Shown here: positions 1-64,000 of the stretch, in pieces
Position numbering within the stretch: the first letter of the stretch is position 1
How the letters are laid out: every line of letters begins with the position of its first letter
From: Trichoplax sp. H2
Taxonomy: Eukaryota
Assembly (NCBI GenBank): GCA_003344405.1
Contig: NOWV01000122.1
Span: forward strand, 1-64,000
Direction: 5' to 3'
DNA length: 64,000 nt
Made by a program: the position numbers and the translations under genes
Notes under the pieces: model-generated
What the model was told of the DNA's origin: nothing
Database searches by the model: none
What the model saw: only the letters and a program-made list of their open reading frames with translations

Positions 1-522
1 TAATAATCGAATTTGGAGCGATTTATCATGCATGGAAAGAGCCACATCGCACATGTTCTGACCACAGTAGATACGCCCAAGTTGATGATAACTATCAGCA
101 AGACGAACATCATTTTCGTCTAGGCATTTTAATTTCATTTCCAATGCTTTTGTGCAGTCTTCTAGTGCTCCATTGAAATTCCATAGCCTTATTTTAATCT
201 CGCTTTGTCTATATAAACATTCAGCTATTCTCACTTCATCTTGCAGTCCATTAGCCAGAGATAGTCCTTTTTTCTTCCATTCATTAGCTTTCTTCCATTT
301 ATATTGGAAAGTGTAAATGTCACATATATCGAGATAAATATCGCACCGAAGGCGATGAATGCCGATACTAGGATTTGGTAATGATTCAATTTCATCTATA
401 GCTTGTGTATAACAGGATAGTCCTTCCGCCAAATTGTAGGCAATCTTACATTTTTGACCCTTTTCATATAGAGACCGTACATGATGAAGAACCATAGAAT
501 GATCAGATTGATCATCAGTCAT
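1..522 (-). CDS. 5' part of a TPR-repeat gene, tandem paralog of the TPR-Roco-death domain gene; truncated by the window edge and missed by the ORF track
   Basis: Minus-strand ATG at 522 opens MTDDQSDHSMVLHHVRSLYEKGQKCKIAYNLAEGLSCYTQAIDEIE...RLRCDIYLDIC...DEVRIAECL...NFNGALEDCTKALEMK...LADSYHQLGRIY, collinear with the N-terminus of ORF 8128..9333 (MADDQSTHF...RLRCDIYLDIC...DEVRIAKCL...NFNGALEDCNKSLEMK...FADNYHQLGRIC). No stop before the window edge. Confidence 0.9.
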   Translation of the reverse strand, partial: MTDDQSDHSMVLHHVRSLYEKGQKCKIAYNLAEGLSCYTQAIDEIESLPNPSIGIHRLRCDIYLDICDIYTFQYKWKKANEWKKKGLSLANGLQDEVRIAECLYRQSEIKIRLWNFNGALEDCTKALEMKLKCLDENDVRLADSYHQLGRIYCGQNMCDVALSMHDKSLQIRLL

Positions 523-1545
523 ATTTTCCTTTTCAAAATTTAATAACAGTTAGTGAATGAAAGTGTGGCGCTGATTCGATAATATCAAAATATGGAAACG
601 ATGTTAGTCCTTGATACCAACGATAAGTTAAGACAAATAAAATTCAAATTTAAGGTTTCTTGCAATGATCGATTACTTATAAGCAAATTGATGTTATGTT
701 TATGCTGTTAGTCGTATGCTTTGTTGGTACAACTCTACTTGCATACGTGTCGTTTTCAAACACAGGAATAAAACGATTACTGAGAAAATTTAATAATAAA
801 TAAACCTTCTCCTAACATTTCATCTATGAATGCTAATAAAAATATTATTCTTCAATCTATAAACGATAGTAGATTCTAGCTTAAGATATGGCGCTAGCGA
901 AGAACCGTTTACATCAATTAATATCAAATTAGGCCAAAATAGATGACTAATTTTATTTTACAAATACACTCCGACTAACACAAATACTATACCAATAGCG
1001 ATGATAAGTATTAAACCTTTATAATTTATTTAACTAGATAACAGCAAGTTAATGCTAACGCCAATAATAATTAGCAAAAAAATTGTATGTATTGTAAGAA
1101 GGCTTTCGCTCACGTTATTTGGACTGATATCTTCAGTTGAAATGCAACTTATAATGTCCTAAACATCAAAGACAGATGGATCATTTACCAATTTATGGAT
1201 TAGTTATTGGCTAATAAGGAATCGATGGTTTGTCGAGATGTAGGTCTACTGCGATCGATTTGGCTTTACGCCATCAATTCCAAAGATGGGCAAAAATGAG
1301 CAAAAGAGAATTAGAAATGAATACACCTCTACCCGACTAACTTTATCTAGCTTTAAGTAGTACTTAGCAAGTAGTACTATAAAGTACGAAAGAGCCAACG
1401 AGTTAGTAGTGTGTTTTATTGATTTAAGCCTCAAATAAAAATAATATTGTGCATGAATGTAGGTTGCTCCATGTAGTATCATAGTATTGTTGCAGCAAAA
1501 GACGATCGAAGGAAAAACATGGTTACTATAGTAACTACACCAATA
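523..1545. repeat. Upstream non-coding region duplicated with ~9334..10355
   Basis: Collinear shared blocks, e.g. gctgattcgataatatcaaaa/gctgattcaacagtatcaagc, gatgttagtccttgataccaacgataagttaa/gatgttagtttttgacaccaaggacaagttaa, caagttaatgctaa in both, ccaaagatgggcaaa/ccaaagatgagcaaa, ttactatagtaacta/ttgctatagtaacta. Confidence 0.85.
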
Positions 1546-2988: not shown

Positions 2989-4367
2989 ACCTTTTTGTAG
3001 CGTGCAAATTTTTGACGATCAGTATAGTTTCAGATGCGCTTGATTTCTAGCAAATTAATATGTGAGTTGCCAATAAAGTTAAAAAAACTCACTAATTAAT
3101 AAATCACTATTGGTCAACTTGCATATTATAGTACAAATATCAGTGAAGAGATACTTCTATACTTCTGCGTGCATAAGATTGAAAGTCAAATCTTTGCTGT
3201 GGAAATAATGATAAGATCAAAATTACCTAAATGATACTAGAACAGTATCTAACGTGCAGTAAATGTACTGCCGTATTTGAACGATCTGCTGAAATATCGG
3301 TTTGGTAGATAATGTTTTCATCATTTTTAGCAAGATTGCAGGCTACTTGATACTCACATTGTCAAAGCATAATTTAAGATTTCAAATATTTAAGCTATTT
3401 TTCTTAGTGAATAATTTTCTAAAGTTTCATACTTTTAAATTCTATTTTGCGTGAAATAATGGCTGTTAAATGATGACTTAGTGATATAGGGGCAAAATAA
3501 ATTCGAATATGGTAGCAAGCTGACTGAGTAATTGCGATAGCTTCTGCCTCACGTGGTTATTGACAGGTATCCTAGGTTAGGTTGTTTGTGATAATTTATT
3601 AAAAAATATACCATTGCAATGGATCAACTCTATTAACAGCTATGATTTTGCTATAGCTACAACTAATTTTTGTTTATCTGCATATTGAATAATGATTTAA
3701 TCTTTTCTTTATTAAATTCATACATGGCTACACTACTATGTAGTTATAGAAAATCATAATTCTTAGTTTGTTGTTTTAAGTTTAATACATTACTCAACTT
3801 TTTTGCAATTAAAGTTACATTATCGGCAGCTATAGAGAGCGAATAATAAATTGTTGCTGTTCGTTATATTTATTATTGTATAGCAATTGATCCACTATAG
3901 AGCCTCTTACAACGTTAAATTACACAACGGAGGACTTAAGATGTAACAGAAAAAAACTACTTGAGTCAGCAGTAAAAGCTAGAGGGATAATCATTCACAA
4001 TGAAACGAAAATACCTACTACACTAAACTAGTGCAAAACTAGATTAAAGTAAAACGTTTTAAATAAAAAATATAAACATAAGTATTACTAGATTTTGAAT
4101 ATCTTGATAAAAGTTTATTTACTACTATCACGACCGAGGTTATGAAGCATAGAGATTATATAAAATTGGAATACTGTACGTTCGTTGATCCAGTATAACT
4201 ACCGTACCTCATAAATTAACATTAACTAGAATTGCTCTTGAAATATTAGCCACTATGCTGATATATATCTTAAGAATTACGATTTGTGTAGTTCAAATCT
4301 CAAAGAAGAAATTTATAAAATTAACCATAACATGACCACTAGCAGCTATGATATTTATCTCTCCTAT

Positions 4368-7300
4368 TCATTCGGTCAATTTTTGTTCGACTTCTTCAGC
4401 TAAAGCATTTATTTCCATCTTACGTAAAGCTTCAACCACTGCAGAGATTTTAGGACTCATCCCAGCTTTATCTTTCCACGATTTTAACACATTGTATACT
4501 TTATCGTAACGTCTTCCATTCTGACTTGATATAATTTCCTTAACCTTTATGTCCGTTAACTTTAATAACACTCCAAAACGAAGTAAACAGTCTCCATCAA
4601 GTTTTGCTGCAATTAAATCGAAGCATTCTCTCTCTATTTTTATGTAAAAGCAAAGGAAATATTCATGAAAAAATTGGCAATATTAGCCTCGTTTCAAGTC
4701 ATCAGTAATGTATCTGGTCTAGAGCACAGGTCTAAGAATGGTATTAAGCAATTTTCCTTCACAATAACTATAAATTTAATCGGATTATTTTAACACGCAA
4801 TCCACTGTTAATATTAAATGCTATTATTGATTCTCAGTCATCATATTTTACTGATTTTAATTTCATAATAGTTATGAATACTTATTAAAGCTTACTGGAC
4901 GAGCTCTTTTAAAATTAAATTAAATCGGAATAGTAATTCATCAATGACTGTTTACTATATTGAGTGATTTTGGTAGTTAATATACCATATTGTAATTACA
5001 ATCCCAAAATGTTCATTTTGCAATATCATAAGCTAGCAAAATTTTATGCGATCGCATAATCAGCGACAAAATCGACAAAACCATTATATCTATTTAAGGC
5101 AGGATCTGTTGTATTATTTGCTCTCATTCGTACTTATATCAATCTATAAATTAATTGCTATATGCATTTTTGAAATGACTGATAGATATCAATTCAGTGG
5201 AGGCTCACCTTTTTCTTCTCTATATATCTTTTTCTCTAAAGAAATGAGGTGAAAATAGGAATAATCAATTAGTAACCCTATCGTAATTATTTTAAAATAG
5301 ATGATAGATTTGCAGCCATGCAAGTGAAATATATGACATGTTTCTCTAAAGAGTTTACGAAGATAGTTTTCTCCCTTTATCCTTTTAGGTGTTTTTATAC
5401 GCAGGGAATGCTATCTATATTAATTTCTATACGCTGCATAAGACGATGAAACTAATTGGCTATTAAACAGTTCAATATTAATGACTTATCGTGTACTAAC
5501 GTTAAAAAGCAAAATACTATAGGAAGCAGCGATAAATAAAATCCAGCCGTTTCTATTTACTACACAAATGAAATGCAGTAGATGAAGTATTCATTTGAAA
5601 TATTGCAATCCATAATACATTTTCAGTAACAAAAATATACAAAATCAGAAAATATTATTGCAGCTAATTAATTGTTGAATATTATGCCAAGGTAGAGTAA
5701 TATGCAAATTTACCTAAAAGATAGCATGCATTCTCGTCTCGTTAACTGTTTTAGCAAATCATTCTGCTTTATTATATCAATGCTTTTACTATACGGTATT
5801 CTAAGATGAGATTTAGATAATGGTTGAATAGAATAGAAACTCCAATCATAATTATTGAAAATTTAGCTTAAAGAATACTAATGCAGAAATTTTGTCAAAA
5901 CACACTATTTTGACAGAAATAATGATTGCAACAACAATCAAGCCAAGAATTGCTTTCACATCCTTACCGTTCCATAGCTCTTCCTTATAAATTATCCAAT
6001 CGTTCAGAGATTGACTAGAAAGTACGTTTTTACAATGTTGGCATCGAATCAAATTTTCATCTTCTTTTTTGTATTCTTTGACTATGGGTATCTGTTCACT
6101 ACATTTACTACATTTGACGTAAAATCGACAATGCTCTTCCTGAAACTTCATCATCCTCATTTTCATAATGGCAATTAGTTTATTCTTTACAATATTATGC
6201 GTCCGTTCCACAAATATAGAATTTTTGACTTTGTCGATAACAGAATTATAAATCGCAGGCGGATCGCTTTTCTGATAGCAATACTGCAAACCAATGTGAG
6301 ATTTCTCTTTCTTAACTATAAGATAATAATTATCATTTACTAGATAATACTTGGCACATTGATAATATACTTCTACGTCCGTATTATTCCATTCCCTTAA
6401 ACAAGATGATAACAGACAATAATATATTCCATCTGGAAGATAAGGAATATCTTCCTGCTTGTAGCCAATATAAAGCCAATCTGATACATGATATGTCGAT
6501 AAATCAAATGGCGCAACATCTTGTTGCAATAGATATGGAACAAAATATTGAGATCCTGTTCCATTCTCATCCAGTTCACTTCTGATTGTGCATAGAATAT
6601 CATAAGCTTCCATTAGTTCCAATATAGTTCTCGTATTATTTTCATCTAAATCAAATTTAAGAATAGCTTCATCGATGTATCTTCTTGACAGCCTTCCTGT
6701 TAGACAGGCTATATCGTATTCCTGTTTCATTGGTATGTCTTCCTGCGTAAAATTATTCACTTGTATTGGAATGATTGAACGAAATATATTTAATAACCAA
6801 TCGACGTTTGTTATAATAATTGCTTCGCTGCGCACATTATCACAGTATATTACTTCTCCTAAATCATGTAGATACTTAAGCATTGCTATCATTTTTTCAC
6901 GGCTTTCAAATAATCCGTACTCCTGAGCTAAGGTTTCCATTTGCTTCATTGTCATAATATTACGCACCTGAGAATTTCTAATTTCATTATTATCAGAAGA
7001 TGTGGCTTCATTATGAATAGATTTTTTTAATAGTGCAGCCATAATATACCATCGAATAGGAATAGGATTAGACATAAACGGCAATTGTCGTATAAACGTC
7101 TTAATAATAGAAAGTAAACGATGACAACATTGTTGACGCTGAACTTTTGTAGATTCACTAGTATGATCAGGATTACAATTGAAAATAATGCCAGAAGAAT
7201 AGATATTTCTGGCATAAGCGGGCATAGATGACATCAATCCAGATACAAATTTATTAAATCGAGAAGTTTGCTTTTTGTTATCTGTAATACAATCGCCATG

Positions 7301-9333
7301 AGAAGCTACCATAATAATAATAGGCAATTGATATGATTTATCTTTATCATTGATCTTTACAGTAATTGTACTTTGGCTTCTGTAGCAACCTATGATTGAT
7401 TTAAGCCATTCTTGCATAGCCTGTAAATAAGTCATATTGCCAGTGGATAATTCACCCTTTCTTATCTTTACTTTGTTATTAAGTTCTTGAGTGATATCAA
7501 ATACAAGAATATAAATGCTATTAGCTGAGATGAATGGATAATGAGTAACATGATAGATCGGATGACCACCGAAATCCCATAGCTTGACAAATTGATTATT
7601 ATGACGTTCATCAGCCATTTGGTCGAAATTGGACGACAAGTAATATTTACGTAAGCTAAGCTTAGATTCCGATTCGATTTCAGTTTCTTTTGATGGAATC
7701 TCTACTTCTTGCAAATTACTTCTGACTAGAACAAATGGTGTATTGCCTCCTGGTGGATTTGTCTCTGATAAATTATCTGTGGTAGCGAATTGACCTATTT
7801 GCTGATTGAATTTATCTTGATTATCCATGCTTGTTTCGGCTAATTGTTTTATGGCTGCCTTCACTTTATCATCTAATATCTTAGTCCAATCACGATTCTC
7901 TAAATAATTAAGACGATAATCTTCAGTATTTACCAAAATACCAGTATTCTCAACCACCTGCGTAGGAGATGCATTTCCGATCAAATTTTGTTGAGAAAAA
8001 ACTTTCCTAATAGATGATTTACCAACACCGCGAGGGCCAATAAATATACCGCGTATCAAATTATTATGTCCATCACATAGATTTAATACTTTGATATATG
8101 CATTGTAATATTTCATTTCTTGTGAATCTATATGATACAAAATGGAAAATATTTGTCATGATGTAAGCAGTATTTATCAGGGTCTTGTATATTACCGTTT
8201 TGAAATTTAATTGTAGATTTACCTTTGACTTGATAGCTAATATCACAACTAGGATCACTGATTGCATTATCACTGTTTGCTGGCTTTGAATCGTTGCTGG
8301 TTTGATCTCGTTTAAATAGCTTAACTACGCCATGAAAAATGCTTTTTACCGCTGACGTAGGTAACGAAAACATCGTAGCTCTTCTTATATTATTTCTCGT
8401 CAATCTAACTTCTGGATGACCTTCGCCGTAGATTGGTAGTGCAATATTGAGTGACTTATCGAACATCTCCAGAGCCTTGTTATATTCGCCTTGTTGATGA
8501 TAGGTAAATCCAATATTGTTGTACAACTGGGCAACGTCGGGATGATTGTCACCAAGAACTGACAGTCGAATTTTCAGGGATTTATCATACGCAGAATGAG
8601 CCTCGTCATATTTGCCTTGATAACAATATATAAGACCAATGCTGTTATATGTGTTAGCAATATCGGGATGATTTCCATTAAGAACTGACAATTGAATTTT
8701 CAGTGACTTGTCAAACATAGAAAGAGCATCATCATTTTTAAGCTGATAGGAGTAGACAACGGCTATGCTGTAATATATGCGTGCGACATCAGAGTGATTC
8801 GGACCAAGGACTAACAATCGAATTTCAAGTGATTTGTCTAACATTTCAAGAGCCTTTTTATAATTTTGCTGGTCAATACAGATGCGCCCAAGTTGATGAT
8901 AATTATCAGCAAAACATACATCGCCTTCTTTTAAGTATTTTGTTTTCATTTCCAACGATTTGTTACAGTCTTCTAGTGCTCCATTGAAATTTAGTTGCAT
9001 TCTTTTAATCTCACACTGCATGTCTAAACATTTAGCTATTCTCACTTCGTCTTGAAGCTTATCAGCCAGATGTTGCCCCTTTTCTTTCCATTTATTAGCT
9101 TCCGTCCATTCATATCGTAAGGTATGAATGAGACAAATATCAAGATAAATGTCGCATCGAAGTCGTTTAATAACGATATGAGGGTTAGATAGCATTTGAA
9201 TCTCTTCTAGAGCTTGTGTATAGCAAGACAATTCCTCCACAAAATTGCAAGCAGTCTTGCATTCCTTGCCCTTTTTGTACAACGTTTGTATATTAGGAGG
9301 TATCACAAAATGAGTAGACTGATCATCAGCCAT
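4368..9333 (-). CDS. TPR-Roc(GTPase)-COR-CxxC/CxxC-death domain protein (kinase-less Roco), ~1187 aa; inferred exons 8223..9333, 5968..8127, 5209..5235, 4368..4633
   Basis: Three ORF-track ORFs join in frame through phase-1 GT-AG introns: AAAG|gtaaat...catatag|ATTCAC (95 nt, 8128..8222), AACG|gtaagg, a 27-nt micro-exon (ctttag|AGAAAAAG...AAAAAG|gtgagc) and aaatag|AGAGAGAATGC. The total is 3564 nt. Motifs: 42-aa TPRs (DKSLKIRLSVLGDNHPDVA); Roc G1 GPRGVGKSS, G3 LWDFGGH, G4-like ASHGD; COR motifs LKYLHDLGEVIY, IITNVDWL and YFVPYLL; CSKC...CQHC; last exon ECFDLIAAKLDGDCLLRFGVLLKLTDIKVKEI...VYNVLKSWKDKAG...ISAVVEALRKMEINALAEEV fits a death domain pattern. Confidence 0.85.
8390..8900 (-). repeat. 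126-bp (42-codon) coding tandem repeat of TPR units, ~4 copies
   Basis: The DKSL motif recurs at ~8453, 8579, 8705 and 8831 (126-nt spacing), with visible nucleotide similarity (e.g. ccaagaactgacagtcgaattttcagg / ttaagaactgacaattgaattttcagt). Confidence 0.85.
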
Positions 9334-11149
9334 CTTTCCTTTACCAATTTCGATTAATGGAAATGTTATGCTGATTCAACAGTATCAAGCATCAAAATGA
9401 TGTTAGTTTTTGACACCAAGGACAAGTTAAAATAAACAAAAAAATTTCAAGCTAAGTTATGTGATAGCGATCGATTGCTTATTCGCGGATTGATATTAAG
9501 TCTTTACGCGATGATTCAATTATGCCGGTATAATTCTTTCTACTAATTACTTTCAAATATAGAAGTTAAAAAATTTTTAATTATCAGAAATTATCAGCAA
9601 CGTACATTCCTTATTGCATCACCTAAGAATCTAATTGAAAGAATACTCTACAACCAAGTAGTGATCGTAGATGATAGCTTAAGAATACAACACTATTGGA
9701 GAATTATTTTAACCAAAATTCATCCACTTAGTAGATAAAATTAATTTAACAAAACACGATTTAAACGAGCAGCATGCCCATAGTAAGAATCAAATTATAA
9801 TTTTTCTATTCTGATAGACAACCACAAGTTAATGCTAATTACATAGACGATTGTTCATGATGAGACAGTAGGTAGCGTTAGTTGGCTTTGGTTCACATCG
9901 TTTGGATGTCTATAAAGGACGTTTTCAAATATAAATGCTAATATAATATGATAGATGTCGAAATAGACGGGCTATTTATCGATTCTTGTTTAAAATCGGC
10001 TACTGGTCACTCAACTTGTTAAGATATAGGTTTAATTCTATCAATTTGACTTCACGCCACTTATTCCAAAGATGAGCAAAGTAATCAAATAAATTGAAGA
10101 TGTCACAAACCTCTATTCGACAAATCCTTTCTACCTGTAGAAAACTGTATAGTGTATAGCCGCTGATCACTGATCTGCGCCTTCAAATACTATTATTTTA
10201 CTGATGCATATCAGCGAGTACAAACTGCTAACTCACTAGCTGTGTTGTACTTACTGTTAGTGCTACTTGCAAAGTACTGCATGAGGAAGAACATTCTTTC
10301 GGTACAGCAGCAAGGAGTGGCCTACCGCCTACGGGGAAAATGTTGCTATAGTAACTAAAATGATTGTTAAAGCGTCAGCATATATACTTGCTAATTTGAA
10401 AATGGCAATCTTTAATTTTGCTACTAGCCACATCGGATATTCCTTAATTGCTGATTTGGAAAATGTAACATCTGAACAGCTATCTGAAATGCGATATCTG
10501 CGGGTAGCAAGGAGTTAGCTCCAGCTATAGTTTGCTTAATTTTACAGTACGAACATAATATTTAATTAAGTAGCTTAGAATGTTGAAGATAAAAGATAAA
10601 AATGACTTAAGTTTAAACATCGCGGCTAACGAAAGCAAAATATGAAACGAATAAATAAACCTATTCAGCATACCTTATACTTAGAAGATAATTGTAATTA
10701 ATGATATATTTTATAAATAAACTATGATAGTTATAAACTTTGAAGTTTTCCTTCCGTATTATTCCAAAATACTGGCAATCTTTCTTGTTAGGAGATTTTG
10801 ATTTTAGCAGTTCTACTCTAATTAAACCATGAAACTACTTTACCTGCTTGATTATTAAGTTCCATTATTTAAATAGTACTACATAGACTTGTAGCTATCA
10901 ATACAAGTATCTTTAGCGAAACCTCTAAAAATATAAGCAATCTGAGTAAATCAAACCAGAGTTAAGGCACTAAAATTGCTAACAAAGTTCTTTAGTGCTT
11001 GCACTATAGGTCCCTATACTAAGATATGATTTCCTAACTCTTCTATATATTACGAACTACTAAATTACACAGATCTAAATTCAATACTTTTACATCATTT
11101 TAAAATATTTTTTATCGAATTTCAAGATATCTGATGTATTTCTTCTTAG

Positions 11150-49103: not shown

Positions 49104-52100
49104 TTAATCTTCGAAAAAAACATCATCATCTTCTTCATTTGCTAGTTGTCTTCTTACTGTATATACATCGTTATTCCATAAACTGGTTTTTCTACCTCTT
49201 ACGGGTTGATTCATAGAATAGCCTTTCCTGTATAGCATAAGGAGAAATAAATTAATTTGAGCAACTAGCATTTTACTGCAATAGCGGAAAAAGTTGATAA
49301 AAAATTGTAATACTATATTGAATCACTATCAGTACACTATATCACACACTATACTATACCGTCAATTTAAGATAACATTACCTCAGCCATCTAATAAAGA
49401 ATAGATAACCACCAAGCAGGCAAACAGCCAATGCTCCACCAATAATACCATCTCGAATCACTATAAATTAGAAATAAACCACGTTATAGATAACATAACC
49501 TAGACGACAGCTAAAAAATTTATCAACATATTCAAAATACAGATTGTTAAATTGATGATACGAACTTCGATCTTGTTTACGCCTTATGAGCGTTTCATTC
49601 TTTGGCACTGGTAGACAAAGATTATCGTTGGACGGAAATGTCATTCTATAAAATCCATCTCTACATAAACATTGTCGATTCGCTCCGCAAAAACTGTTAT
49701 TATAAGCACAATGCTTGTCTTCAGTGCAACCGGATATTGGCATACAACCGTTATTAATGCGCTGAAATCCAACCTGTTGACAATGTATAAATTTTAGTAT
49801 AAAATAATCCATAAATAAGAGATTACAGTGAAACATAGCTTCCAATTAACTAACAGAAAATGAGAATATATTGACGTTTAATTTGGTATAGAGTACACAC
49901 GATGATCAATAACATCATGTTAGTCTACTTACAATACAAACACAACGTCCATCCCGACATTCCTGGTTTGCGTTAGAGCATTCCGGCTGACATTGAATAT
50001 TATCGGGTGGCATAATTAATTTATTGCAGCCAGTCACATTCTTTCCGGTGCTACTATCAACACACCAAATTTCCCTGTTGCCGGATTGTATCGACCACTT
50101 ACCAGTACGCCAGATAAATTGAGCACATGTAGCCTCAGATGGTAAACATCTTGTAACTTCAACCAAATTATTAGGGCAAGGTAAACCACCAGCATTAGCT
50201 TGATGTATAATTTGACGAGCTCTTACACGATAACCATTACCATTTTTCTGGTTGCAATCATAATGACATGGGCTATAATTACTCCAAGTTGTTAAGACGC
50301 AATCGCCTTTACAAGAGATATAACAGTCTTCCTTAGTGCTTATATCTAGTGTCGACTCTTTTACGTTAAATCCAATCTTATTTTCATTAGCCTTGATTAA
50401 GGTAGCAATACATTTTGAAGTATCAACTTCTAAACCATCATTTCGAATACAACGAATAGTACGATATCGTTTACCATGGCCGCATTCACTACCAACAGTG
50501 GTACAACGAGACCAATGACCTCTTGTAATACGATAATTGAAACATGGTTTTACATTACAAGGAAGTGATTGAAGCAAATGTTGGTGTTGTGGACAAGGTC
50601 TACCATTTCCAGTGGCATTATATAATATATAGCGCTGCCGCGTAATTGTTCCATTCAATCCACAGCTAGCAGAACAAGATGACCATGATGACCATTCTGA
50701 TAAAATACAATCAGTATTACACGGAACGTTACAATCACGCATTGTCGGTAAATTATTATTTGAGCAAAGTGATGAACCAACAACGACACCGTCACTTCGT
50801 TGGCAGTTAATAGCACGAAATTGTACTCCTTGACCGCATATTGGAGAAGATGGTACACAACGTGTCCACGGTGACACTGTCCAATAGTACTTATGGCAAG
50901 AATTAACGATACATGCTTCAGCTTGGACGGTATCAGTACAATCTAAACCAGATATATCGCGCAATAAGTATCGCGTTCTACGACGACTACCACGACTACA
51001 AGTTTGACTGCATGATGACCATTCAGACCACATACTATAGCCACATTGATTGGAACAGCTAATTTGACATGGTTCAACGTTAACAGGTTGCATAATTAAA
51101 GCTTCACATAGACGCTTTGGTATAGGCGATTGGTTAGAATCGATACAATATACTTTGCGTGTTCGTCCGCCATGACCGCAAGAGCTTCCATTATTTAGAA
51201 TACATTGACTCCAAGCGCCGGTAAACCATGAGATACCATGACAAGACCTTTGCTGGCATACTTCTGTCTCTTGTAGATTACCGCATCGTTTCACGTTACC
51301 CGATGCGTAATGGATAATTTGACGTTTCCTTCTTTTGATACCATAGCCGCATTCTTGATCACAATCACTCCAATGTGACCATTGTGTCATTTGGCAATGG
51401 AGTCCACAGTCAATTGTACATGTTTTCAAAGTAGCTGGTATACTATCCACATATTTGATACATACATCATTGTCAACAATTGTATTATCACTTCGTTCAC
51501 ATAACAAGCTACGCTTTTGTATACCTTTGCCACAGTTAGCATTGTCCAGTGTTAATACACAGCTATGCCACTGTCCAATGAGCCATTTATACGTGAAACA
51601 TTGATCATTGATGCAGTTAGTAACTTGCTTCAGATCTGCTTCAACAGTATGTTTACAAACTTGGAGGCCAGTTGACATATTGTAGTTATAAAAATGACGA
51701 ACTCGATACTTACGATCAGCATTATGATTACAGTTACTAGAACACTTTGACCAAGCAGACCATTCACTTAAAGAGCAGTCATTACTGCATGGTATTGAGC
51801 ATGAACGAACATGATCAGGTGCATTCAGTAAACTATTATTGATACAGACTTCATGATCGTCCATGGTATATCCATTATATACACAATCCACTTGCCTTGA
51901 TTGAATTCCACCACCACAAGCCATTGTTGAATTTTCTTGAAGTAATTTACACGATGACCAAGGGTGAGTAACCCATTGATACTGTGTTCTATTCTGACAC
52001 GGTGGTAAATCGCATAAACGTTTTTGAAGTACAATTCCATCTATCGTTCCATTATTAGGGCATGGCTTGCCACCATGGAGTGGATACTGCATAATAAATT

Positions 52101-53910
52101 TGGAACGTGTTGAATAACCTTCACCACAAGATTGAGAACAGATCGACCATGTTGTCCATTGACTTGATAATTTGCAATCAATAGGACAAGGAATATCGCA
52201 ATCGCGATTATTAGCTGGGATAGAATGATTACCTAACAGTGATGAACAATTGACCAAGCGCATCTGTTGACCTGTACCAATTCCACAAGTACTATTTGGT
52301 TTTGGTATACATGCATTCCATTGGCTAACAGTACAAATATCTTTTAAGCAATCAGTACAAGAACGCGTTTCTTCTAAATGATTGACAGATTCGCAATTCC
52401 TTCCAGTGCCTAATAAGTAACGCTGACGTTTACTCACCTTAGAGCAATTACCATGACAATCTGACCAACTTGTCCACTCAGAAAGTATGCAATCATCAAG
52501 GCAAGGTATTAAACAAGATCTATCTCGTGATGGTCGAGGCAAATGACTACAATTTTGATCGCTTAAAGTGCTACCATCATGCGATACGCAATAAACACTC
52601 CTTAAGGAAGTGCCTCGACCACATTGTGAATTCAATTGATCAGGTAAGCATCTACTCCATGCATCTGTGCGCCAATGAGAACAATTATTTTGACTACATC
52701 GTTGAGATTGGTTGAGAATGCCACAATCTTTGCCTGCATTCATAGGTGGGATAATGATTTTACGATGGCGTGAAGTAATACCAATACCACAGCTATTGGA
52801 ACATTTTGACCAATCTGACCATTGGCCTGTTAAACAATCTTGGCTACAATGAATAGAACAGCCACGAGCAAGGCTAACACGATCAATCTCTGTCTTATTC
52901 TTTTGGCAAAATTGATTTTCGACAATGGTGTTGCTATCACTATTGACGCAAATTATAGATCTTCGTTGTATGCCATTTTGGCAAGTAGAATTTTTATTCT
53001 GTACCGATGGATCGATGCTACATGCTCCCCAATCGGTGATAATCTGACGATAGTTGTTGGTACTCTTACTACTACAAATGGGTAATATGCAAAGTTGCTC
53101 TTGAGATAAAAGGGGGCAAGCTTGACCACCATTGATAGGATAGCGTAAAATTCGACGATATCTTTTTTGTATAAAGCTTGAAGGTGATGAAGTATTAGCA
53201 CACCCTTGACATGCTGGACTCCAATTCTTCCAATCCGATACTAAACAATCGACTTTTGGATAGCATAGTTCATCAAAAGTGGTACGAATATTGAGGTTCC
53301 TTGGACAGTAATGGTCGGCAATATAATTGCCATTGCGATCGATACAAACTAAGTTGCCTTTTCGTACTTGAATGTCGGCGTCATCTACTATGTAATCTTC
53401 ACATTGACCAAGATGCGATTTCCACACAGTGGATGATACAAGTTGGATGGATTGATTGCACGGCAATGAGTTATAACATGCTTGTTGTTGATACGTCGTT
53501 GGGCAATGGTAGATTTGTTGCTGATTGGGAACAGCTAAAACTTGACGATGACGAGATTGTATCCCTTGACCACAAGTTGTTGAGCAAGGACTCCAACTGG
53601 ACCATAGACTGAGTATGCAAGCATTGGATTGAGAACATGATGAACACGGTTGAAGATTGGGTGGTCTTGATAAATGACGACAATAATAATTGGGTACAAG
53701 CTGTTGATCTCGTTGACGTCGACATGTTACCTGGCGTGGTTGACCACAATTTAAGCGGCAACAAGGTGAAATCGGATGACGACTATATTGCCAAGTATCA
53801 ATGAATTGGCAGTCTTGCCAAGGGGTCGTCTTCCATACAAATTGACCACTGGTACATGCTACCAATAGAGTCATGACGATCACTAAAAGTAAATTGATTA
53901 ATTTGACCAT
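49104..53910 (-). CDS. THSD7-like type I membrane protein, copy 1 (signal peptide, ~20 alternating TSP1 repeats, EGF-like modules, TM, acidic tail); exons 49933..53910, ~49581..49773, 49382..49460, 49104..49227
   Basis: Signal peptide MVKLINLLLVIVMTLLVACTSG at 53910; the upstream part of the ORF runs into an intron acceptor near 53999. Alternating WxxxxWxxC...C-G-G-Q-R-V-C (ADAMTS-type) and DCxLSxWSxWSxCS...RxR (spondin-type) TSRs, as in THSD7A/B. TM IIGGALAVCLLGGYLFFI. Tail ends EEDDDVFFED*. The donor of exon 2 is uncertain. Confidence 0.88.
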
Positions 53911-54699
53911 CGTTATTGAAGTGATTTTTGCAATGTTGGAAAATATCCTTTCGAAACTGTTTCTGTCTTGAAGAGAAGCAGACGATGAATTGCAATGCCT
54001 AAAAAAGAAGAAGAAGAGAGTCAAAATGTCACGGCGCTAATTTATTGGTCCTTTTAACACTGAATGACGTCAATGGAGTATTTTACCACCATGGGTACCG
54101 ACAGTACTGTATGATAACTACATTGAAATGGGCAATGGATAAAAGCGATGACTAGTGTATGATAATTAATGAAGCAGCGTTATTTATAATGATGAAATTG
54201 CTTTGAATAAGATTGGATTTGCAGTTCAATCGTTTGAAAAGAGAGAAAGAAACCAAAATTGATTTCTTAAAAAGGCAAAAGAAAAAATAACAAGGAAAAA
54301 GAATGCCGGTACACATAGGGGAAAAAAATGGATTGAAAATGATGCAAGAACCATGATCATTCCATTCAGTCATTTTTTTCCTTTCTTTTACCTCTCTTTC
54401 AAAACGACATCCAGACGATAGAGAATACTCAGTCTATGCTACCGGCTATAAACGAAGAATTTGTCAAGAGAGCGGCTACTAGGGTAGAAAAATCATCCAT
54501 TGCATTTCATTTGGATAACCTTGAAGAAAGTGCGGTCCTATCCTACTTGGCCATGGGATGCAACTATCAAGAATTGACCTCCCCCCCCCCTCAAATCAGC
54601 AAGGAATGATGCGACCGAAGCGTCCATGATTGAAGTGAAAGACACAACGATACCAGAAATGGAGCGTAAGACAAAAGACTGAAGCGTTAAGTCGACGTC

Positions 54700-57830: not shown

Positions 57831-59702
57831 AAATCATTGATTTAAGGAATCAATTTAGAAATTAAGCTACACATTGCCACAAATAAATTTACAAAATAGC
57901 GGAGTAATTTCTCATTATTCCTCTTTGAAGGATTCCTAACGCATCGCTCGGAGCTTTCATTAATACTAATAATTGGTAGAATTGGTAAAATTTAAAAATG
58001 CCAATTCAGCTTATTTGACTGGGAAAATTAACAGTACTTTCTAATCGTCTAATCGATCCGTTTACCTCCTCAAGGTTTATTTCTAGTATTAGTTGCACTC
58101 GAATATTTTATGAAAATCGGCGTAATAAAAATTGATACAGACTATTACTAAACGAAATACAATTACCCATTAAGCTTGATACTCAACTCATCGGTAAATA
58201 GTATTTATTTACTCCATATGAGGGTTTAACTATTACCGTTCAATCTATCATAAGTAAGCTATTGCCGGAATACTACTGATAAGTCTTCTGATCATCTAAT
58301 TTTATACCTTTCATGTACCACCGTTAAGAACTAGTGCAGGGATTGCAGCCAAAGGCACCTATTGACCAGTAGTTTCGACAATAACAACGACAGACTGAAT
58401 TCCGGTCAGTATCCATCGCATATTAGCTTTTTGCCATTTTATATTTTATATTTAAGCTCTGATCCATGTTTTCTGTCAGCCTTTGCATTCTTTAATACCT
58501 ATTTAAGTAAACATCCATACATCCACATAATGTAAATATTCAATGTTAACGTATAATTTACCGCGGAAACTTTCTGAACTTAATTGAACTGAATTTCATT
58601 TAGACCGATAGGATTATTATCATATCCTTACGTGGTAAAATTGATATTATTTTTAAATAGTGATATATCACTATTCATAGCAATTTTCTGAATGTCGATA
58701 TATTAAGGTGAAAAGTTAATTTATAATGATGCAAAATGGAGATTTTTCATCTTCAAGTATTAGTATGCAATACAATCTTTCTGAACTCGATTCAATTGAG
58801 ATGGATTTATAACGATAGATAGATTCTCATATCCCTATACATTATAGAGTAAAGTAAATGATCAAGTTTAATATTATATTCGTTTACAACAGCAAATTTT
58901 TGAAGCTCTTCTTTTTATACGTCGTATCTTGTATGAGTAATTTAGTGAACTATTATTGCCATTTAATCTTGTTCATGATACCAAATAACTACCGTTAAGG
59001 TTGTTGAAACCGATAGTTATAACTTACTACTTAAACAAAGCTATCGTCCGTGCTAAACCTTCATTTTATCCTTCTACCACCCTGTGAGGCTCGAAAGCTT
59101 GAACTAATTATCGTCCGTATACGAAAACTTAGCTGGGGAGAAGAAAGAAAACCAACCGTTCATTTATCATTCCGATGTAATATAAACTCAATCTGTAAGA
59201 CTCTTATTGCTAATAACAAATGTGAACTGATTTCTTCCTTATTACTACATTCATTTCTTCCGTACCCTTATTGACTAGCGAATCACTTAATCAATGCATA
59301 CTTGTTAATCACCTGTAACAAATCATCAAATCGAATTTCATTGCCAAGTGTCGTCGTCGCATACTATTTTTAACACGATGTTTATTTATCTACCTAATCA
59401 ATCCTTTCTACCGACCCATTTATTTTTATTTTTTAACTTGATTTTATTATTTTCCACCAATAAACGCCTGTAAATCCTTCGGTTAGTAGCTATAATGCCT
59501 ACAAGTTCAAACCTGACTACCCTAGCAGGTGGTCAGACATCAATTATTCCTTAAATTGTCGTCATCACTGGCTAATTTTATCCCAAAATTGATCTCTATA
59601 TCAGTTAGAACGTACGACCAAGTTATAAAAAAAATACTACCGTCATTTGCAAGCCATACAGCTAAATTGACGTGAAGAAGAAGAAGAAAAAAATAATAAC
59701 AC

Positions 59703-62700
59703 ATGTCTAAGTGCAATTCATATTGGATATGTTTTGCAATTTTATTGCATTTAGTCATCATTAGCAATGCTAACAATCAATCCAGTGTTTTTAGATGGGA
59801 TTGTTTAGTCTCCTTCACATCTGCAGACAGTCAGCCATGGAAAAGCTATGGAAGATTTTATTGCATTTATAAGCCGACGCATAAAATCTCACCTTATTAC
59901 TACTGTCGTGATATACCTAAACCGAAGGATATCAATAGTCCTTGCTCCAATTCAACTTTATCTCATATTTTAACATCTTGGAATTCATGGCAATCTAATT
60001 CATCGCTAAATTTGCGCTATCGAACACGAACTATTCTTTATAGTAAAGTTAGTAACTTCAAGTCAAAGCCTAAATTGATGGAAATGAGCATTCTTGATCA
60101 ACAGCATGAAGAAAATGCCAAGTTTACAAGATGGATAGTAGGACCGTGGTCTTCTTGTAAGCAACAATCTATTTTAAATAGTAATACGGCTACGAGTATG
60201 GCAAGATCAAGCCAGCATATGCTACCTACAACAATATCTAAAAGGTATAGAACAGTTCAATGTGTAAGCTATGATGGCCACTTTAGCCATGGTTGCTCAA
60301 TTCAAGCCAGACCCCATGCAGAAGAAATTTGTGCCATTGGTAGTCAATGCCAAGTCTCTTCTTGGTCATCGTGGTCAGATTGTCAATTTAGCCATAATCC
60401 ATCCAAATCGCCTCAAATAGGAATTCAATCCAGAAAACGCCATATTAATTATCTCAATCCTGATAATGGAATTTATTCGTGTCCTCCGTTGCTAGATCAA
60501 CGAACTTGCAAGCTCATTCATAAGCCAAAACCGCAATGGAAAACAGGCGAATGGACTTTATGCCAGATTCGTTGGCCTTCCTTATTAGCTGGGCAACAGC
60601 AATGTGGCAATGTCGGATGGCAATCGCGAGCAGTATGGTGCGTCAATGATCGAGGTAATATGGTTAATGAAAAATATTGCCAACATGATGGAGGACAAGA
60701 AAATAAACCAGTTTTCAATCGCTTATGTATAATCGATTGCAAGAGAGATTGCTTAGTTGGGCCTTGGTCAGAATGGTCATCATGTTGTTCACCTTATCGT
60801 TCATTTTCAAGACGCCATCGGCAAGTATTAATACCACCAAAACAAAATGGACAAGCCTGTCCACCCCTGACAGAAAGTAGAAATTGCTCAATGCGATCAT
60901 GCTATCAATGGTTTGCCGATAAATGGTCAACCTGTTTACTATCCAATGCTAATAGTCGTCCATATTGTCAAACTGGTCGTAAATTTCGTAGTGTTTATTG
61001 TATCGATCAAAATCATCGTATGGTCATGGATAGATATTGTCAATTATGGAAGCGGCCAGCTTTCAGTAAATCATGTACACTGCCATGCTTAAATGATTGC
61101 ATCCTTAGTCGTTGGAGCGATTGGCAAACTGAAACATTGCAACTAATACCGACAAGATTGAATTCAACCATGATGATGCTACAAGAAAATCGCCAAGTTC
61201 GTATACGTTATATCCTAGCGGATCCAGGTGTTGGTGGCAAACCGTGTCCATATTCATCCCAGCTTATCGAAAGTATGACTGTTAGGCATTATTTGCCTAT
61301 ATGGATCACTCAGTCTTGGTCAAATTGTACTTGTTTTGCCGATGGATGTTACCAATATCGGACCGTAAATTGCTTTGATGTCTTCGAGAAGAGAATTTTA
61401 CCCATGTCATTATGCCAATATCGAATGCAACCTCCATTAGAGCGAAAATGTCATGATCAACAACAAGAGCGCCCATTGCATTGCCAATTATCACCATGGA
61501 GCGATTGGTCTTCACCCCCTCCATCCTCATCAATGATCTTTTGCAAACCAAAAGCGCAAAATAAACGATTACGGGTAGTCCTACAATATCATTCTGTTGG
61601 TGGCCATCCTTGTCCAAGTAATATGACTCGTAATGGTCTTATCGTGGAATATACAAAATTGACCAATCTATCTTGTATTTCGTCTGCTTCTTCATCATCA
61701 TCCATGCCGTACTCATCTTCATCCAAGCTATCATCTACAAATTTTTATACTTGGCGTACAGGATCTTGGCAAGCATGCCTATTATTAAATTTTGACCGAA
61801 GAAACCCGTTGTGTGGTGTTGGCATGCAATCTAGAATGGCCCAATGTATTCACCTAGAGAATAATAATATTGTTGCGCTTAACTATTGCTTAAAGAATCG
61901 ATCATTAAAAATGCCAGAAATATTTCGAAAATGTTTCGTTCCATGCCAAGGTGATTGTAGTTTAACTCCATGGTCCGCTTGGTCGAATTGTTCACAATCT
62001 TGTTCTAATCACTGGATCAATCCAAATCGAAAGCGATATCGCACTTTTACAAATTATAATCGAGAAGAAGGTTTAAGAGTTTGCCGATATATCGATCCAA
62101 GCCACCTCGAACAGCAATCTAAATGCACCAATCGACATTGCTTTGAATACGCATGGTTACCCAGTCCCTGGTCCAGTTGTTTGCTCAAAGCTTCCAATTG
62201 CGGCCAAGGTTTACAACATCGCCATTTAACATGCCAAAGAAACGATTCAATCATTGTCGATCATCGTTGGTGCCAGCAATATGCTAAGAATAAACTCGCT
62301 ATTAATCGTCGATGCTTCAAAAATTGCTCGATCGACTGCATTGTTAGTACATGGTCAGTTTGGAATCCTTGCCAACATGATTGCGGTGACAGCTTAAGAA
62401 ATCGTACAAGAACTGTATTACGAGCTCCGCAATATGGTGGTCGTCCATGCCCAAGTTTATTCCAGTTAGAAATATGCCAAGAGAGACTATGCCATGATAT
62501 TCGTTGGCATTATACAACTTGGAGCCAATGTCTATTTCGTAATCTATCGAATCATTGTGGTCAAGGCTTTCAAAGCCGTAAAGTTTACTGTAGTGATCGA
62601 CATGGCCATGTCTTAGATGATCAACGATGCTTATTAATAGCTGATAAACCAAATTCAGTAGAATCATGCCATATTGCATGTCCTGGTAAATGCGTTTATA

Positions 62701-63842: not shown

Positions 63843-64000
63843 GTAAGAAAGAATAATCATCTACTTGAGTTTTTTTTTCTACATTCTCACATTGAAGAGT
63901 TTAACCTTCATTAGTCATTTCACTTGCAAAGTTTAGCTGGCGATGCTCAATAGATCTGTAGAAGTGATTAATCTAGCATAAAGGAGTTACTTCCAATGCT

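What the first reader, a model, noticed from the sequence alone, without database searches (positions are those of the whole stretch)
4368..9333. TPR-Roc-COR-death domain protein: candidate GTPase-switched innate-immune / cell-death receptor
Seen: three apparently separate ORFs splice in frame into one protein with N-terminal TPR repeats, a Roc GTPase plus COR, and a C-terminal death domain, with no kinase. Established: Roc-COR is a nucleotide-dependent dimerisation switch (LRRK2, DAPK1, MFHAS1); death domains nucleate signalling filaments; repeat sensor + NTPase switch + death-fold effector is the NLR/Apaf-1 logic. Inference: this is an NLR analogue that uses a Roco GTPase instead of a STAND ATPase, with reversed domain order. 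From memory, expanded Roco families have been noted in placozoans, so the architecture may already be catalogued, but I know of no established function.
Basis: partly seen in the sequence, partly recalled or inferred. Interest (0 to 1): 0.85.

Follow-up and report, generated by a model that had tools for sequence, protein, structure and literature searches.

The report
Placozoan TPR-Roco GTPase with death domain
This is a real, transcribed Trichoplax gene for a kinase-less LRRK2-type GTPase flanked by TPR repeats and a death domain, one of a family of such genes already catalogued in placozoans, whose function has not been tested.

Summary
The window is Trichoplax sp. H2 DNA. The minus-strand gene at 9333..4368 exists and is already in GenBank as a 1201-aa "Kinesin light chain", a misleading name.

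Domains confirmed:
- TPR, Roc and COR-A by Pfam.
- An LRRK/Roco-like fold for exon 2 and a six-helix FADD-like death domain for the last exon.

RNA contigs from three studies confirm the 95-nt first intron and the donor at 5968. That donor joins a 27-nt mini exon (5235..5209), not the death exon. The contigs then continue into sequence absent from the window. The death-domain junction therefore rests on homology and reading frame alone.

The gene belongs to a placozoan-specific expansion. Kinase-less Roc-COR-Death proteins also occur in echinoderms, amphioxus, an annelid, a scallop and a hemichordate. Some relatives are fused to caspase, TIR, DED, FIIND or NB-ARC domains.

The architecture was catalogued in 2014 (PMC4104024), and the GTPase-as-NLR-switch idea is in print (PMC8195603). 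An immune or cell-death role is plausible but untested.

The parts
8223..9333 (-). Exon 1 (1111 nt): start codon at 9333..9331, N-terminal helical region, then KLC/NPHP3-type TPR repeats (about 8961..8314).
   Evidence: Pfam TPR_12 E 1.5e-63 and TPR_10 2.7e-37. 100% match to P0001 residues 1-370. RNA contigs of X5, X7 and X11 cover it and are spliced at 8223.
8128..8222 (-). Intron 1: 95 nt, GT..AG, phase 1.
   Evidence: Joint 8127|8223 in contigs of 3 of the 4 runs laid. Splice-site letters read.
5968..8127 (-). Exon 2 (2160 nt): Roc GTPase with a ~100-aa insert, COR-A, COR-B, a helical hairpin and a four-cysteine zinc ribbon.
   Evidence: Pfam Roc and COR-A. AF2 model pLDDT 81, pTM 0.84. Foldseek top hits LRRK1, LRRK2, C. 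tepidum Roco and M. barkeri Roco2, E 1e-14 to 3e-9. phmmer against PDB finds C. tepidum and M. barkeri Roco and LRRK2 Roc.
8015..8038 (-). P-loop (G1), GPRGVGKS.
   Evidence: Read. GPxxVGK[ST] is conserved in paralogs.
7562..7579 (-). Switch II (G3), WDFGGH. It lies 145 residues after the P-loop, where classical Roc has about 40-60.
   Evidence: Aligned to WDFGGQ of C. tepidum Roco. The model shows a helix plus a disordered stretch (exon-2 residues 80-163; pLDDT about 31 over 105-148) in between.
7292..7306 (-). ASHGD, at the place of the guanine-specificity (G4) motif. The assignment is inferred.
   Evidence: Conserved as [AG][ST]H[GAS]D in paralogs; coordinates. That Roc proteins use T/N-K/H-x-D here is recalled, not tested.
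6527..6988 (-). COR-A.
   Evidence: Pfam PF16095, 42.6 bits against a cut-off of 35.3, residues 390-543 of the 767-aa ORF.
6032..6112 (-). Zinc ribbon, CxxC-x19-CxxC, after COR-B.
   Evidence: The four Cys are conserved in at least 90% of 51 aligned family rows. The model has four short strands here. The CxxC...CxxC pattern occurs in 35 of the 60 closest proteins against 3 of the 100 more distant ones. A weak Pfam Zn_ribbon_CSL hit falls below its cut-off.
5236..5967 (-). Intron 2: 732 nt, GT..AG, phase 1.
   Evidence: Joint 5235|5968 in contigs of X5, X7 and X11. Splice-site letters read.
5209..5235 (-). 27-nt mini exon (9 aa, EKKIYREEK).
   Evidence: RNA joint. An equivalent 9-aa segment sits between the zinc ribbon and the death domain in paralog models P0016, P0002, P0003 and P0181.
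4634..5208 (-). Predicted intron 3: 575 nt, GT..AG, phase 1. Not confirmed by RNA.
   Evidence: Frame and splice-site letters. No contig shows this joint.
4368..4633 (-). Predicted last exon: death domain (87 aa) plus TGA at 4370..4368.
   Evidence: Pfam Death 26.7 bits. AF2 pLDDT 91 with six helices. Foldseek top hits are FADD, TNFR1, DR3 and RIPK1 death domains, TM 0.7-0.82. 79-80% identical to the death domain of paralog P0016.
1..549 (-). First exon (cut by the window edge) of a tandem paralog: Met at 522, TPR.
   Evidence: tblastn of P0001 residues 1-174 onto 522..1, 61% identity. Pfam TPR_12.

Best explanation
The locus is an intact, transcribed Trichoplax sp. H2 gene for a kinase-less Roco protein of about 1187 aa.

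Domain order: N-terminal KLC/NPHP3-type TPR solenoid; Roc GTPase carrying a ~100-residue insert between switch I and switch II; COR-A and COR-B; a four-cysteine zinc ribbon; a 9-aa linker exon; a C-terminal death domain. It belongs to a placozoan-specific expansion. That expansion lies inside a wider invertebrate group of Roc-COR proteins whose ends carry death-fold and other cell-death or immune modules.

Most likely mechanism (inferred):
- The TPR solenoid binds a partner or ligand and holds the protein closed.
- The Roc-COR unit acts as a guanine-nucleotide-dependent conformational and oligomeric switch, as shown for C. tepidum Roco and LRRK2.
- Switching frees or clusters the C-terminal death domain.
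- The death domain then recruits other death-domain proteins into a helical assembly that feeds caspase or NF-kB-type outputs.

What is shown: the exons, the domains, the folds, transcription of exons 1-2 and the mini exon, and family membership. What is inferred: inclusion of the death exon in the mRNA, GTP dependence, oligomerisation, and any immune or death output.
For: Identity and gene model:
- 100% match to GenBank P0001.
- Three GT..AG phase-1 introns give one open frame of 1187 codons.
- Intron 1 and the 5968->5235 joint are in RNA contigs of three studies.

Domains and folds:
- Pfam hits.
- AF2 with Foldseek: exon 2 matches LRRK1, LRRK2 and C. tepidum Roco at E down to 1e-14, and the last exon matches the FADD death domain at TM 0.79-0.82.
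- The P-loop and DxxG motifs are intact and conserved.

Death exon belongs here:
- It has no in-frame ATG of its own.
- Its acceptor is in the right phase.
- Paralog models share the 9-aa mini exon followed by a death fold.

Family:
- 50 representatives at E<=1e-30.
- All 10 of the 10 long top relatives looked up are Trichoplax.
- All 23 named Trichoplax rows, and none of the 27 named non-placozoan rows, fall in one 47-row group with SH-like support 99.
- At least 8 H2 models combine TPR, Roc/COR and Death.
- A tandem paralog lies at 1..549.

Functional association by fusion:
- Of the 50 closest representatives, 8 have Death and 2 have CARD.
- Of 57 more distant ones, 13 have Death, 4 caspase, 2 DED, 2 TIR, 2 Macro, 1 Bcl-2 and 1 GT4-conflict.
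- An amphioxus member reads Roc-COR-FIIND-UPA-Death.
- Trichoplax P0034 and P0163 read NB-ARC-APAF1_C-Roc-COR.
- The death-fold end is swapped between close paralogs: the death domain is 80% identical to P0016 but 23% to P0003, while COR-B is 73% and 68%.
Against: - No RNA contig joins the mini exon to the death exon. In 3 of 3 RNA runs the contig continues after 5209 into 27-123 letters that are absent from the window.
- The only well-covered RNA contig on the death exon (X5, 4200..4486) carries the residues of paralog P0016 at all four coding differences. It probably comes from another copy or allele (read).
- Switch II has His where Ras-like GTPases have the catalytic Gln, so hydrolysis may be slow or absent.
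- Death domains also occur in non-death scaffolds: ankyrin and UNC5 are among the fold hits.
- The published placozoan innate-immunity survey does not mention Roc or GTPases (0 occurrences). The only published guess on placozoan ROCOs is chemotaxis or phagocytosis.
- No expression-after-challenge data were seen.
Confidence: 0.5

Rival explanations
1. The main mRNA of this gene does not use the death exon at 4633..4371. After the mini exon it splices to another terminal exon (called X here) that lies outside the window or is missing from this assembly. X could be a different effector module, given how death-fold ends are swapped between paralogs. The death exon would then be an alternative or recently copied, little-used exon.
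For: - Contigs of X5, X7 (organism A) and X11 (organism B) all continue from 5209 into the same unknown sequence. It is open in phase for its first 9 codons.
- That sequence is not in the window within 3 mismatches. The longest shared exact word is 10 nt.
- The death exon is much closer to P0016 (80%) than the rest of the protein is (53-73%).
- Contigs on its 3' half carry P0016-type residues.
- Close paralogs end in type-A DD, type-B DD or CARD-like modules.
Against: - Paralog models put the death-fold exon directly after the 9-aa mini exon.
- The death exon is an intact 87-codon frame with a correct phase-1 acceptor and a confident death fold.
- Logan contigs drop rare isoforms and break at branch points, so a missing joint proves nothing (caveats).
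- Exon X could not be located anywhere.
- No stored family protein holds any of five 5-residue words taken from exon X's in-phase translation.
Confidence: 0.3
2. The protein is a GTP-regulated scaffold for vesicle, cytoskeleton or chemotaxis functions, as proposed for LRRK proteins and Dictyostelium Roco proteins. In this reading the KLC-type TPRs bind cargo or adaptors, and the death domain is only a generic interaction module, as in ankyrins and UNC5. It is not a danger sensor.
For: - The TPRs are of the kinesin-light-chain/nephrocystin-3 type, hence the GenBank names.
- Civiero et al. 2014 speculate on chemotaxis or phagocytosis for the placozoan expansion (passages).
- Ankyrin and UNC5 death domains are among the fold matches.
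Against: - The wider family is fused again and again to dedicated death or immune modules (caspase, DED, CARD, TIR, FIIND-UPA, NB-ARC, Bcl-2), not to trafficking modules.
- The best fold matches of the death domain are FADD, TNFR1, DR3 and RIPK1.
- Lineage-specific expansion, tandem copies and module swapping are what is usually seen in immune-type families. That last generalisation is established knowledge, not tested here.
Confidence: 0.2
3. The locus is a decaying or non-functional duplicate in a large family, transcribed but without a role.
For: - No T. adhaerens ortholog above 60% identity was found among annotated proteins.
- All four coding differences between the window's death exon and the laid contigs are non-synonymous (my reading).
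- Switch II has His in place of Gln.
Against: - The 1187-codon frame has no stop, with canonical splice sites.
- The nucleotide-binding motifs and all four zinc-ribbon cysteines are intact.
- AF2 confidence is high.
- Spliced RNA was found in three studies, including a second organism label at about 98% identity.
- His in switch II is the majority state among the closest paralogs.
Confidence: 0.05

Closest known systems
Trichoplax adhaerens ROCO gene set (Civiero et al. 2014, Chem Biol, PMC4104024; passages and figure legends read, figure not seen)
   Same: [quoted passage not shown] The present gene is an H2 member of that expansion. Several of my relatives are TRIADDRAFT models.
   Different: This particular H2 gene has no close T. 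adhaerens model in my searches; the best is 53% identity. In the passages I read, the paper mentions neither the Roc insert, the zinc ribbon, the mini exon nor module swapping, and it proposes chemotaxis or phagocytosis rather than an NLR-like role.
DAPK1 (death-associated protein kinase 1)
   Same: Repeats, then Roc, COR and a death domain, in that order. It is a Roco protein with a death-fold C-terminus tied to cell death (domain order recalled; DAPK as an AP-GTPase protein is stated in PMC8195603). A hemichordate relative, P0062, reads Ank-Roc-COR-Death without a kinase.
   Different: This protein has no kinase and no calmodulin-binding segment (that DAPK1 has one is recalled), and it has TPR where DAPK1 has ankyrin repeats. 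It has an extra zinc ribbon and a Roc insert.
Kinase-less Roc-COR-Death proteins of echinoderms, amphioxus, annelid, scallop and hemichordate (uncharacterised RefSeq models)
   Same: Same Roc subtype with the long P-loop-to-DxxG spacing: 57 of 63 scored rows fall at 90-270 residues. COR is followed by a C-terminal Pfam Death domain in 9 of the 10 examined.
   Different: They sit on the other side of the tree from the placozoan group. They mostly lack the TPR N-terminus, and the CxxC...CxxC ribbon occurs in only 3 of 100. Some carry FIIND-UPA, caspase, DED or TIR instead.
Prokaryotic and algal repeat-Roc-COR-effector proteins ('AP-GTPase' conflict systems, Kaur et al. 2021, PMC8195603; brown-algal LRR-ROCOs, PMC11378527; passages read)
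   Same: Same logic and same order: N-terminal variable repeats, a Roc-COR switch, and a variable C-terminal effector or adaptor. These papers propose them as immune receptors, with Roc standing in for STAND NTPases.
   Different: Those use LRRs and enzymatic effectors or none. Here the repeats are TPR and the end is a metazoan death domain. None has been tested in placozoans.
NLR / Apaf-1 (STAND) receptors, including the placozoan NB-ARC-TPR/WD40 set (Kamm et al. 2019, PMC6321704; passages read)
   Same: Three-part design of repeat sensor, NTP switch and death-fold adaptor. The same TPR class is used by placozoan NB-ARC proteins according to the paper. One Trichoplax family member even fuses NB-ARC-APAF1_C to Roc-COR.
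   Different: This protein has no NACHT or NB-ARC domain. The switch is a Ras-like GTPase that in known Roco proteins toggles between monomer and dimer rather than building a ring (recalled). The domain order is the opposite.
C. tepidum Roco and human LRRK1/LRRK2 Roc-COR structures
   Same: Best sequence and fold matches for exon 2.
   Different: Identity is only 10-15% over the fold alignment, with TM (query) 0.43-0.49 at rmsd 7-10 A over about 720 columns, so domain orientation is not the same. The insert in Roc and the zinc ribbon have no counterpart in those hits as far as these alignments show.

Membership tests
Roco (Roc-COR) GTPases | Ras-like Roc domain with P-loop and DxxG | tested here: met
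   Pfam Roc 40.9 bits against a cut-off of 27. GPRGVGKS and WDFGG are present and conserved. Aligned to C. tepidum Roco and LRRK2 Roc.
Roco (Roc-COR) GTPases | COR domain directly C-terminal of Roc | tested here: met
   Pfam COR-A 42.6 bits against 35.3. The exon-2 model aligns over about 720 columns to the Roc-COR of LRRK1, LRRK2 and C. tepidum Roco, E 1e-14 to 1e-12. Pfam COR-B gave no hit for this protein.
Roco (Roc-COR) GTPases | Guanine-nucleotide binding or hydrolysis and nucleotide-dependent dimerisation | not testable with these tools
   Motifs only. The switch II residue is His, not Gln.
Death domain (DD subfamily of the death fold) | Six-helix death-fold bundle with a DD-type sequence profile | tested here: met
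   Pfam Death 26.7 bits against 22.6 for the exon, though 22.3 in the full GenBank protein. AF2 pLDDT 91 with six helices. Top 10 Foldseek hits are all DDs (FADD, TNFR1, DR3), TM 0.69-0.82, with Foldseek E only 1e-3 to 4e-2.
Death domain (DD subfamily of the death fold) | Homotypic DD-DD assembly | not tested
   No partner was examined.
NLR / STAND receptors | NACHT or NB-ARC STAND NTPase core | tested here: not met
   No NACHT or NB-ARC hit in any of the three exon translations at E<=0.01. The protein is therefore an analogue at most, not a member.
DAPK1 orthologs | N-terminal Ser/Thr kinase plus ankyrin repeats before Roc-COR-DD | tested here: not met
   No Pkinase or Ank hit. Only the Roc-COR-DD order is shared.
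Kinesin light chain / Nephrocystin-3 (names given in GenBank) | Full KLC or NPHP3 architecture, not just TPR_12-type repeats | tested here: not met
   TPR_NPHP3 scored 83.4 bits against a cut-off of 100. The rest of the protein is Roc-COR-DD. The names reflect the TPR similarity only.
Placozoan Roco expansion | Groups with Trichoplax Roc-COR proteins to the exclusion of other animals' proteins | tested here: met
   FastTree of 117 rows. The window sequence sits with P0002 and P0003 (support 99) inside a 47-row group (support 99) that holds all 23 named Trichoplax rows and none of the 27 named non-placozoan rows. The other 24 rows in the group are unnamed.

The most novel reading that the evidence does not exclude
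Placozoan TPR-Roc-COR-death/CARD proteins, together with the kinase-less Roc-COR-Death/caspase/TIR proteins of echinoderms, amphioxus and lophotrochozoans, would form a third, GTPase-switched class of animal intracellular danger receptors beside NACHT and NB-ARC receptors. Their death-fold output exons would be exchangeable, possibly including alternative 3' exons at this very locus, as the unexplained exon X hints. In one Trichoplax lineage they would be physically fused to an Apaf-1-type ATPase.
Probability: 0.25. Interest if true: 0.75.

Novelty: new member of a known kind. Interest (0 to 1): 0.4.

Why it matters
If the death domain is really coupled to the Roc-COR switch, this family is a simple, kinase-free setting for asking what a Roco GTPase cycle does to an output domain. 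That question is still debated for LRRK2 and DAPK1.

It would also show that early animals built sensor-switch-death-fold receptors on a Ras-like GTPase as well as on STAND ATPases.

In practical terms, the GenBank names ("Kinesin light chain", "Nephrocystin-3") hide the family from immune-gene surveys. The placozoan innate-immunity survey I read does not mention it. As it stands, though, the gene is one more member of an expansion already listed in 2014, with no functional data.

Tried and rejected
- **Whole-genome paralog count.** No genome is held for this window, so counts come from protein databases only.
- **Locating the unknown exon X that follows the mini exon.** There were 0 hits in the window at up to 3 mismatches. 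The longest shared exact word is 10 nt, at unrelated places. There were 0 hits in JGI metagenome contigs. None of five 5-residue words from its in-phase translation occurs in a stored family protein.
- **Looking for a T. adhaerens ortholog model that might show the true 3' end.** The death exon searched against longer proteins found only P0001 and P0016. Exon 2 against longer proteins found 9 paralogs at 58% identity or less.
- **RNA cover of the death exon.** X7 and X11 have little or no cover on 4371..4633. X5 covers only the 3' half, with a P0016-like contig. By the tool's own caveat, a part without cover proves nothing.
- **Complex prediction on two copies of COR-B plus the zinc ribbon** (exon-2 residues 525-719). 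The result was 'no answer' with score 0.00, and the fold itself was uncertain. This is evidence neither for nor against dimerisation.
- **Pfam scan of all 93 more distant relatives.** Before that I had left out 7 short fragments from P0061-P0160.
- **Earlier notes of this scan.** There are none for this genome. A word search returned only notes on other genomes: two bacterial Roco findings and one unrelated Naegleria kinase note.
- **Readings rejected.** That the gene is a true kinesin light chain or nephrocystin-3 (see the membership test). That the three ORFs are separate genes: exons 1 and 2 are joined in RNA, and the death ORF has no start codon of its own.

Full report
**What is there.** The window is AT-rich eukaryotic DNA, with 28-40% GC per 2-kb step. 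On the minus strand there are three open frames: 8128..9375, 5852..8155 and 4368..4682. Exon 2 is 100% identical to a GenBank protein of Trichoplax sp. H2, P0001 (1201 aa), named "Kinesin light chain". The organism and the existence of an annotated gene model are therefore settled. No whole genome is held for the window.

**Domains.** Pfam gives the following:
- First ORF: TPR_12 (E 1.5e-63) and related TPR families.
- Second ORF: Roc (40.9 bits, cut-off 27) and COR-A (42.6 bits, cut-off 35.3).
- Third ORF: Death (26.7 bits, cut-off 22.6).
- No kinase family is hit.

The Roc match is split. A weak Ras hit covers the P-loop region, and the Roc hit starts about 100 residues later. In the spliced protein, 145 residues separate the P-loop (GPRGVGKS) from WDFGGH.

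An AlphaFold2 model of exon 2, built on 51 family sequences, has pLDDT 81 and pTM 0.84. It contains a helix plus a disordered stretch in the insert. Its best Foldseek matches in the PDB are LRRK1, LRRK2, C. tepidum Roco and M. barkeri Roco2, at E 1e-14 to 3e-9. Sequence search of the PDB finds the same proteins.

After COR-B the model has a helical hairpin and four short strands carrying CxxC-x19-CxxC. These four cysteines are conserved in at least 90% of the 51 aligned rows.

The last exon, modelled with 22 rows, has pLDDT 91 and six helices. Its top matches are the death domains of FADD, TNFR1, DR3 and RIPK1, at TM 0.7-0.82. Foldseek E-values are modest, from 1e-3 upward, as expected for an 87-residue query. 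phmmer aligns it over the whole FADD death domain at E 0.018.

**Gene model and RNA.**
- Exon 1 (9333..8223) and exon 2 (8127..5968) are joined across a 95-nt GT..AG phase-1 intron. That joint is present in contigs of 3 of the 4 runs laid (X5, X7, X11; three different studies).
- The fourth run, X1, covers exons and introns evenly with no joint, so it behaves as DNA.
- The donor at 5968 is used in the same three runs, but it joins acceptor 5235. A 27-nt mini exon (5235..5209, EKKIYREEK) follows.
- The GenBank model uses an acceptor 42 nt further upstream and so carries 14 extra residues that the RNA does not support.
- With the mini exon and the death exon (4633..4371), the frame is open for 1187 codons, and all three introns are GT..AG.

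**The weak point.** None of the RNA contigs goes from the mini exon to the death exon. After 5209 they continue for 27 letters (X5, X7) or 123 letters (X11) with the same sequence. That sequence is absent from the 64-kb window and from JGI metagenome contigs.

The one well-covered RNA contig on the death exon (X5, 4200..4486) differs from the window at 12 places. The four that fall in the coding part change the residues to exactly those of paralog P0016 (my reading). That cover therefore probably belongs to another copy or allele.

Three observations favour the death exon belonging to the gene:
- It has no start codon of its own.
- Its acceptor is in the right phase.
- Paralog models P0016, P0002, P0003 and P0181 all show an equivalent 9-aa segment followed directly by a death fold.

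I put the chance that at least some transcripts carry this death exon at roughly two in three. I keep the alternative, another terminal exon, as the main rival.

**Family.**
- A scan of 1.84 billion representative proteins gives 934 hits at E<=1e-3, 185 at <=1e-10 and 50 at <=1e-30.
- All 10 of the 10 long top hits I looked up are Trichoplax H1 or H2 proteins. Their names are Nephrocystin-3, Kinesin light chain, Death domain-containing, "Apaf-1, partial" or CHAT.
- In the 50 closest representatives, Pfam finds COR-A in 41, Roc in 27, TPR_12 in 17, Death in 8 and CARD in 2.
- At least 8 H2 models combine TPR, Roc/COR and Death.
- A further paralog begins at 522 and runs off the window's low end, in tandem.
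- A FastTree of 117 Roc-COR stretches was built from 116 of 176 matched proteins, keeping those that cover query positions 190-560, plus the window. It puts all 23 named Trichoplax rows, 24 unnamed rows and none of the 27 named non-placozoan rows in one group with support 99. The nearest rows are P0002 and P0003. This is a lineage-specific expansion.

**Beyond Placozoa.** My own death-domain HMM, built from seven family members, found death domains in 32 of the 165 proteins stored at that point, including distant Roco hits.
- Ten of those distant hits were looked up. They come from brittle star, sea urchin, sea star, crinoid, amphioxus, the annelid Owenia and a scallop.
- Nine of the ten have Pfam Death together with Roc or COR and no kinase. 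One amphioxus protein reads Roc-COR-FIIND-UPA-Death.
- Among 57 of the 93 more distant relatives (the rest were left out for a size limit), Pfam finds Death in 13, caspase in 4, DED, TIR_2 and Macro in 2 each, and Bcl-2, GT4-conflict, kinase and ankyrin in 1 each.
- The ankyrin case is a hemichordate Ank-Roc-COR-Death protein.
- The long P-loop-to-DxxG spacing is shared: 25 of 25 scored close rows and 57 of 63 scored distant rows fall at 90-270 residues. The zinc-ribbon pattern is nearly confined to the close set, at 35 of 60 against 3 of 100.
- Within Trichoplax, P0034 and P0163 read NB-ARC-APAF1_C-Roc-COR.
- Close paralogs carry different death-fold ends. The death domain here is 80% identical to that of P0016 but 23% to that of P0003, while COR-B is 73% and 68% identical.

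**Mechanism.** The parts and their order are shown. By analogy with solved Roco proteins (recalled knowledge on C. tepidum Roco and LRRK2), I infer the following:
- The Roc-COR unit is a nucleotide-dependent conformational and oligomeric switch.
- The N-terminal TPR solenoid is a partner-binding, possibly auto-inhibitory arm.
- The C-terminal death domain is the output, recruiting other death-fold proteins.

Repeated fusion of this Roc subtype to caspase, DED, CARD, TIR, FIIND and NB-ARC modules is the only evidence here that the output concerns cell death or immunity. Switch II has His instead of Gln, so hydrolysis may be slow.

**Comparison with what is known.**
- Civiero et al. 2014 (PMC4104024; passages and legends read) list at least 17 ROCO genes in T. 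adhaerens with TPR, LRR, CARD, death and AAA domains, and speculate on chemotaxis or phagocytosis.
- A 2024 brown-alga paper repeats this and treats ROCOs as candidate immune receptors (PMC11378527, passages).
- Kaur et al. 2021 (PMC8195603, passages) describe Roc ("AP-GTPase")-COR proteins with N-terminal repeats and variable C-terminal effectors as conflict systems in which the GTPase can replace a STAND NTPase.
- An Aplysia survey notes ROCO modules in TIR and death proteins (PMC9334734, passages).
- The placozoan innate-immunity paper (PMC6321704, passages) has no occurrence of Roc or GTPase.
- Only 7 papers in the library hold both "ROCO" and "Trichoplax", and from their titles and abstracts none is a functional study of these proteins.

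The architecture and the idea are therefore both in print. The function is untested.

**Verdict.** The gene and its domains are real. The splice model needs correction: four exons, and a GenBank acceptor that RNA does not support. The death-exon junction is unproven and carries an unexplained RNA observation. The protein is a Roco family member, not an NLR. The NLR-like reading is reasonable, already proposed for this protein class, and untested. Interest is moderate.

Noticed in passing
window 5209..4200 and the contigs laid: RNA contigs of three runs leave the 27-nt mini exon for an exon that is not in the window. DNA-like run X1 has lower contig depth (37-65 against about 77) on 4612..5472, and 3-5% differences on 4822..5053 and 4200..4487, where exons 1-2 differ by 0.1-0.4%. 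This may be a heterozygous or structurally variable 3' end, or gene conversion with the P0016 locus.
   Followed up: partly
window 1..549 (-): A tandem paralog starts at 522 (61% identical to the N-terminus of this protein, TPR) and runs off the window. None of the stored proteins appeared among the 40 best tblastn matches on this stretch.
   Followed up: partly
proteins P0034 (TRIADDRAFT_62071) and P0163 (H2, named 'Apaf-1, partial'): Gene models in both Trichoplax annotations read NB-ARC - APAF1 helical domain - Roc - COR-A, with death-domain matches at the ends by my own HMM. That puts a STAND ATPase and a Roco GTPase in one polypeptide. Whether the models are correctly joined was not checked.
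   Followed up: no
protein P0130 (amphioxus) and relatives in alignment A6: Roc-COR-FIIND-UPA-Death in amphioxus. Other members of the same Roc subtype carry caspase, DED, TIR_2, Macro, Bcl-2 or GT4-conflict domains.
   Followed up: partly
paralogs P0002, P0003, P0016, P0181, P0024, P0185: Close paralogs share the 9-aa mini exon but end in two different death-domain types, or in CARD-like modules. The CARD-like call for P0024 and P0185 is by eye; Pfam finds CARD in 2 of the 50 closest representatives. This suggests exon-level swapping of the output module.
   Followed up: partly
window 9334..9500 and beyond: The spliced RNA contigs run past the start codon to the end of the laid stretch. From their lengths (for example 3197 letters, of which 2567 lie on the stretch) they reach about 600 nt further. 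This could be a long 5' UTR, an upstream exon or read-through.
   Followed up: no
window 49915..54036 (-) and 59700..63914 (+): Two very long single ORFs (1373 and 1404 aa) packed with thrombospondin type-1 repeats (TSP1_spondin E 3.9e-94 and 8.1e-54). They are unrelated to the finding.
   Followed up: no
window 5236..5277: The GenBank model P0001 starts the mini exon 42 nt too early, adding 14 residues, compared with the acceptor used in the RNA contigs of three runs.
   Followed up: yes
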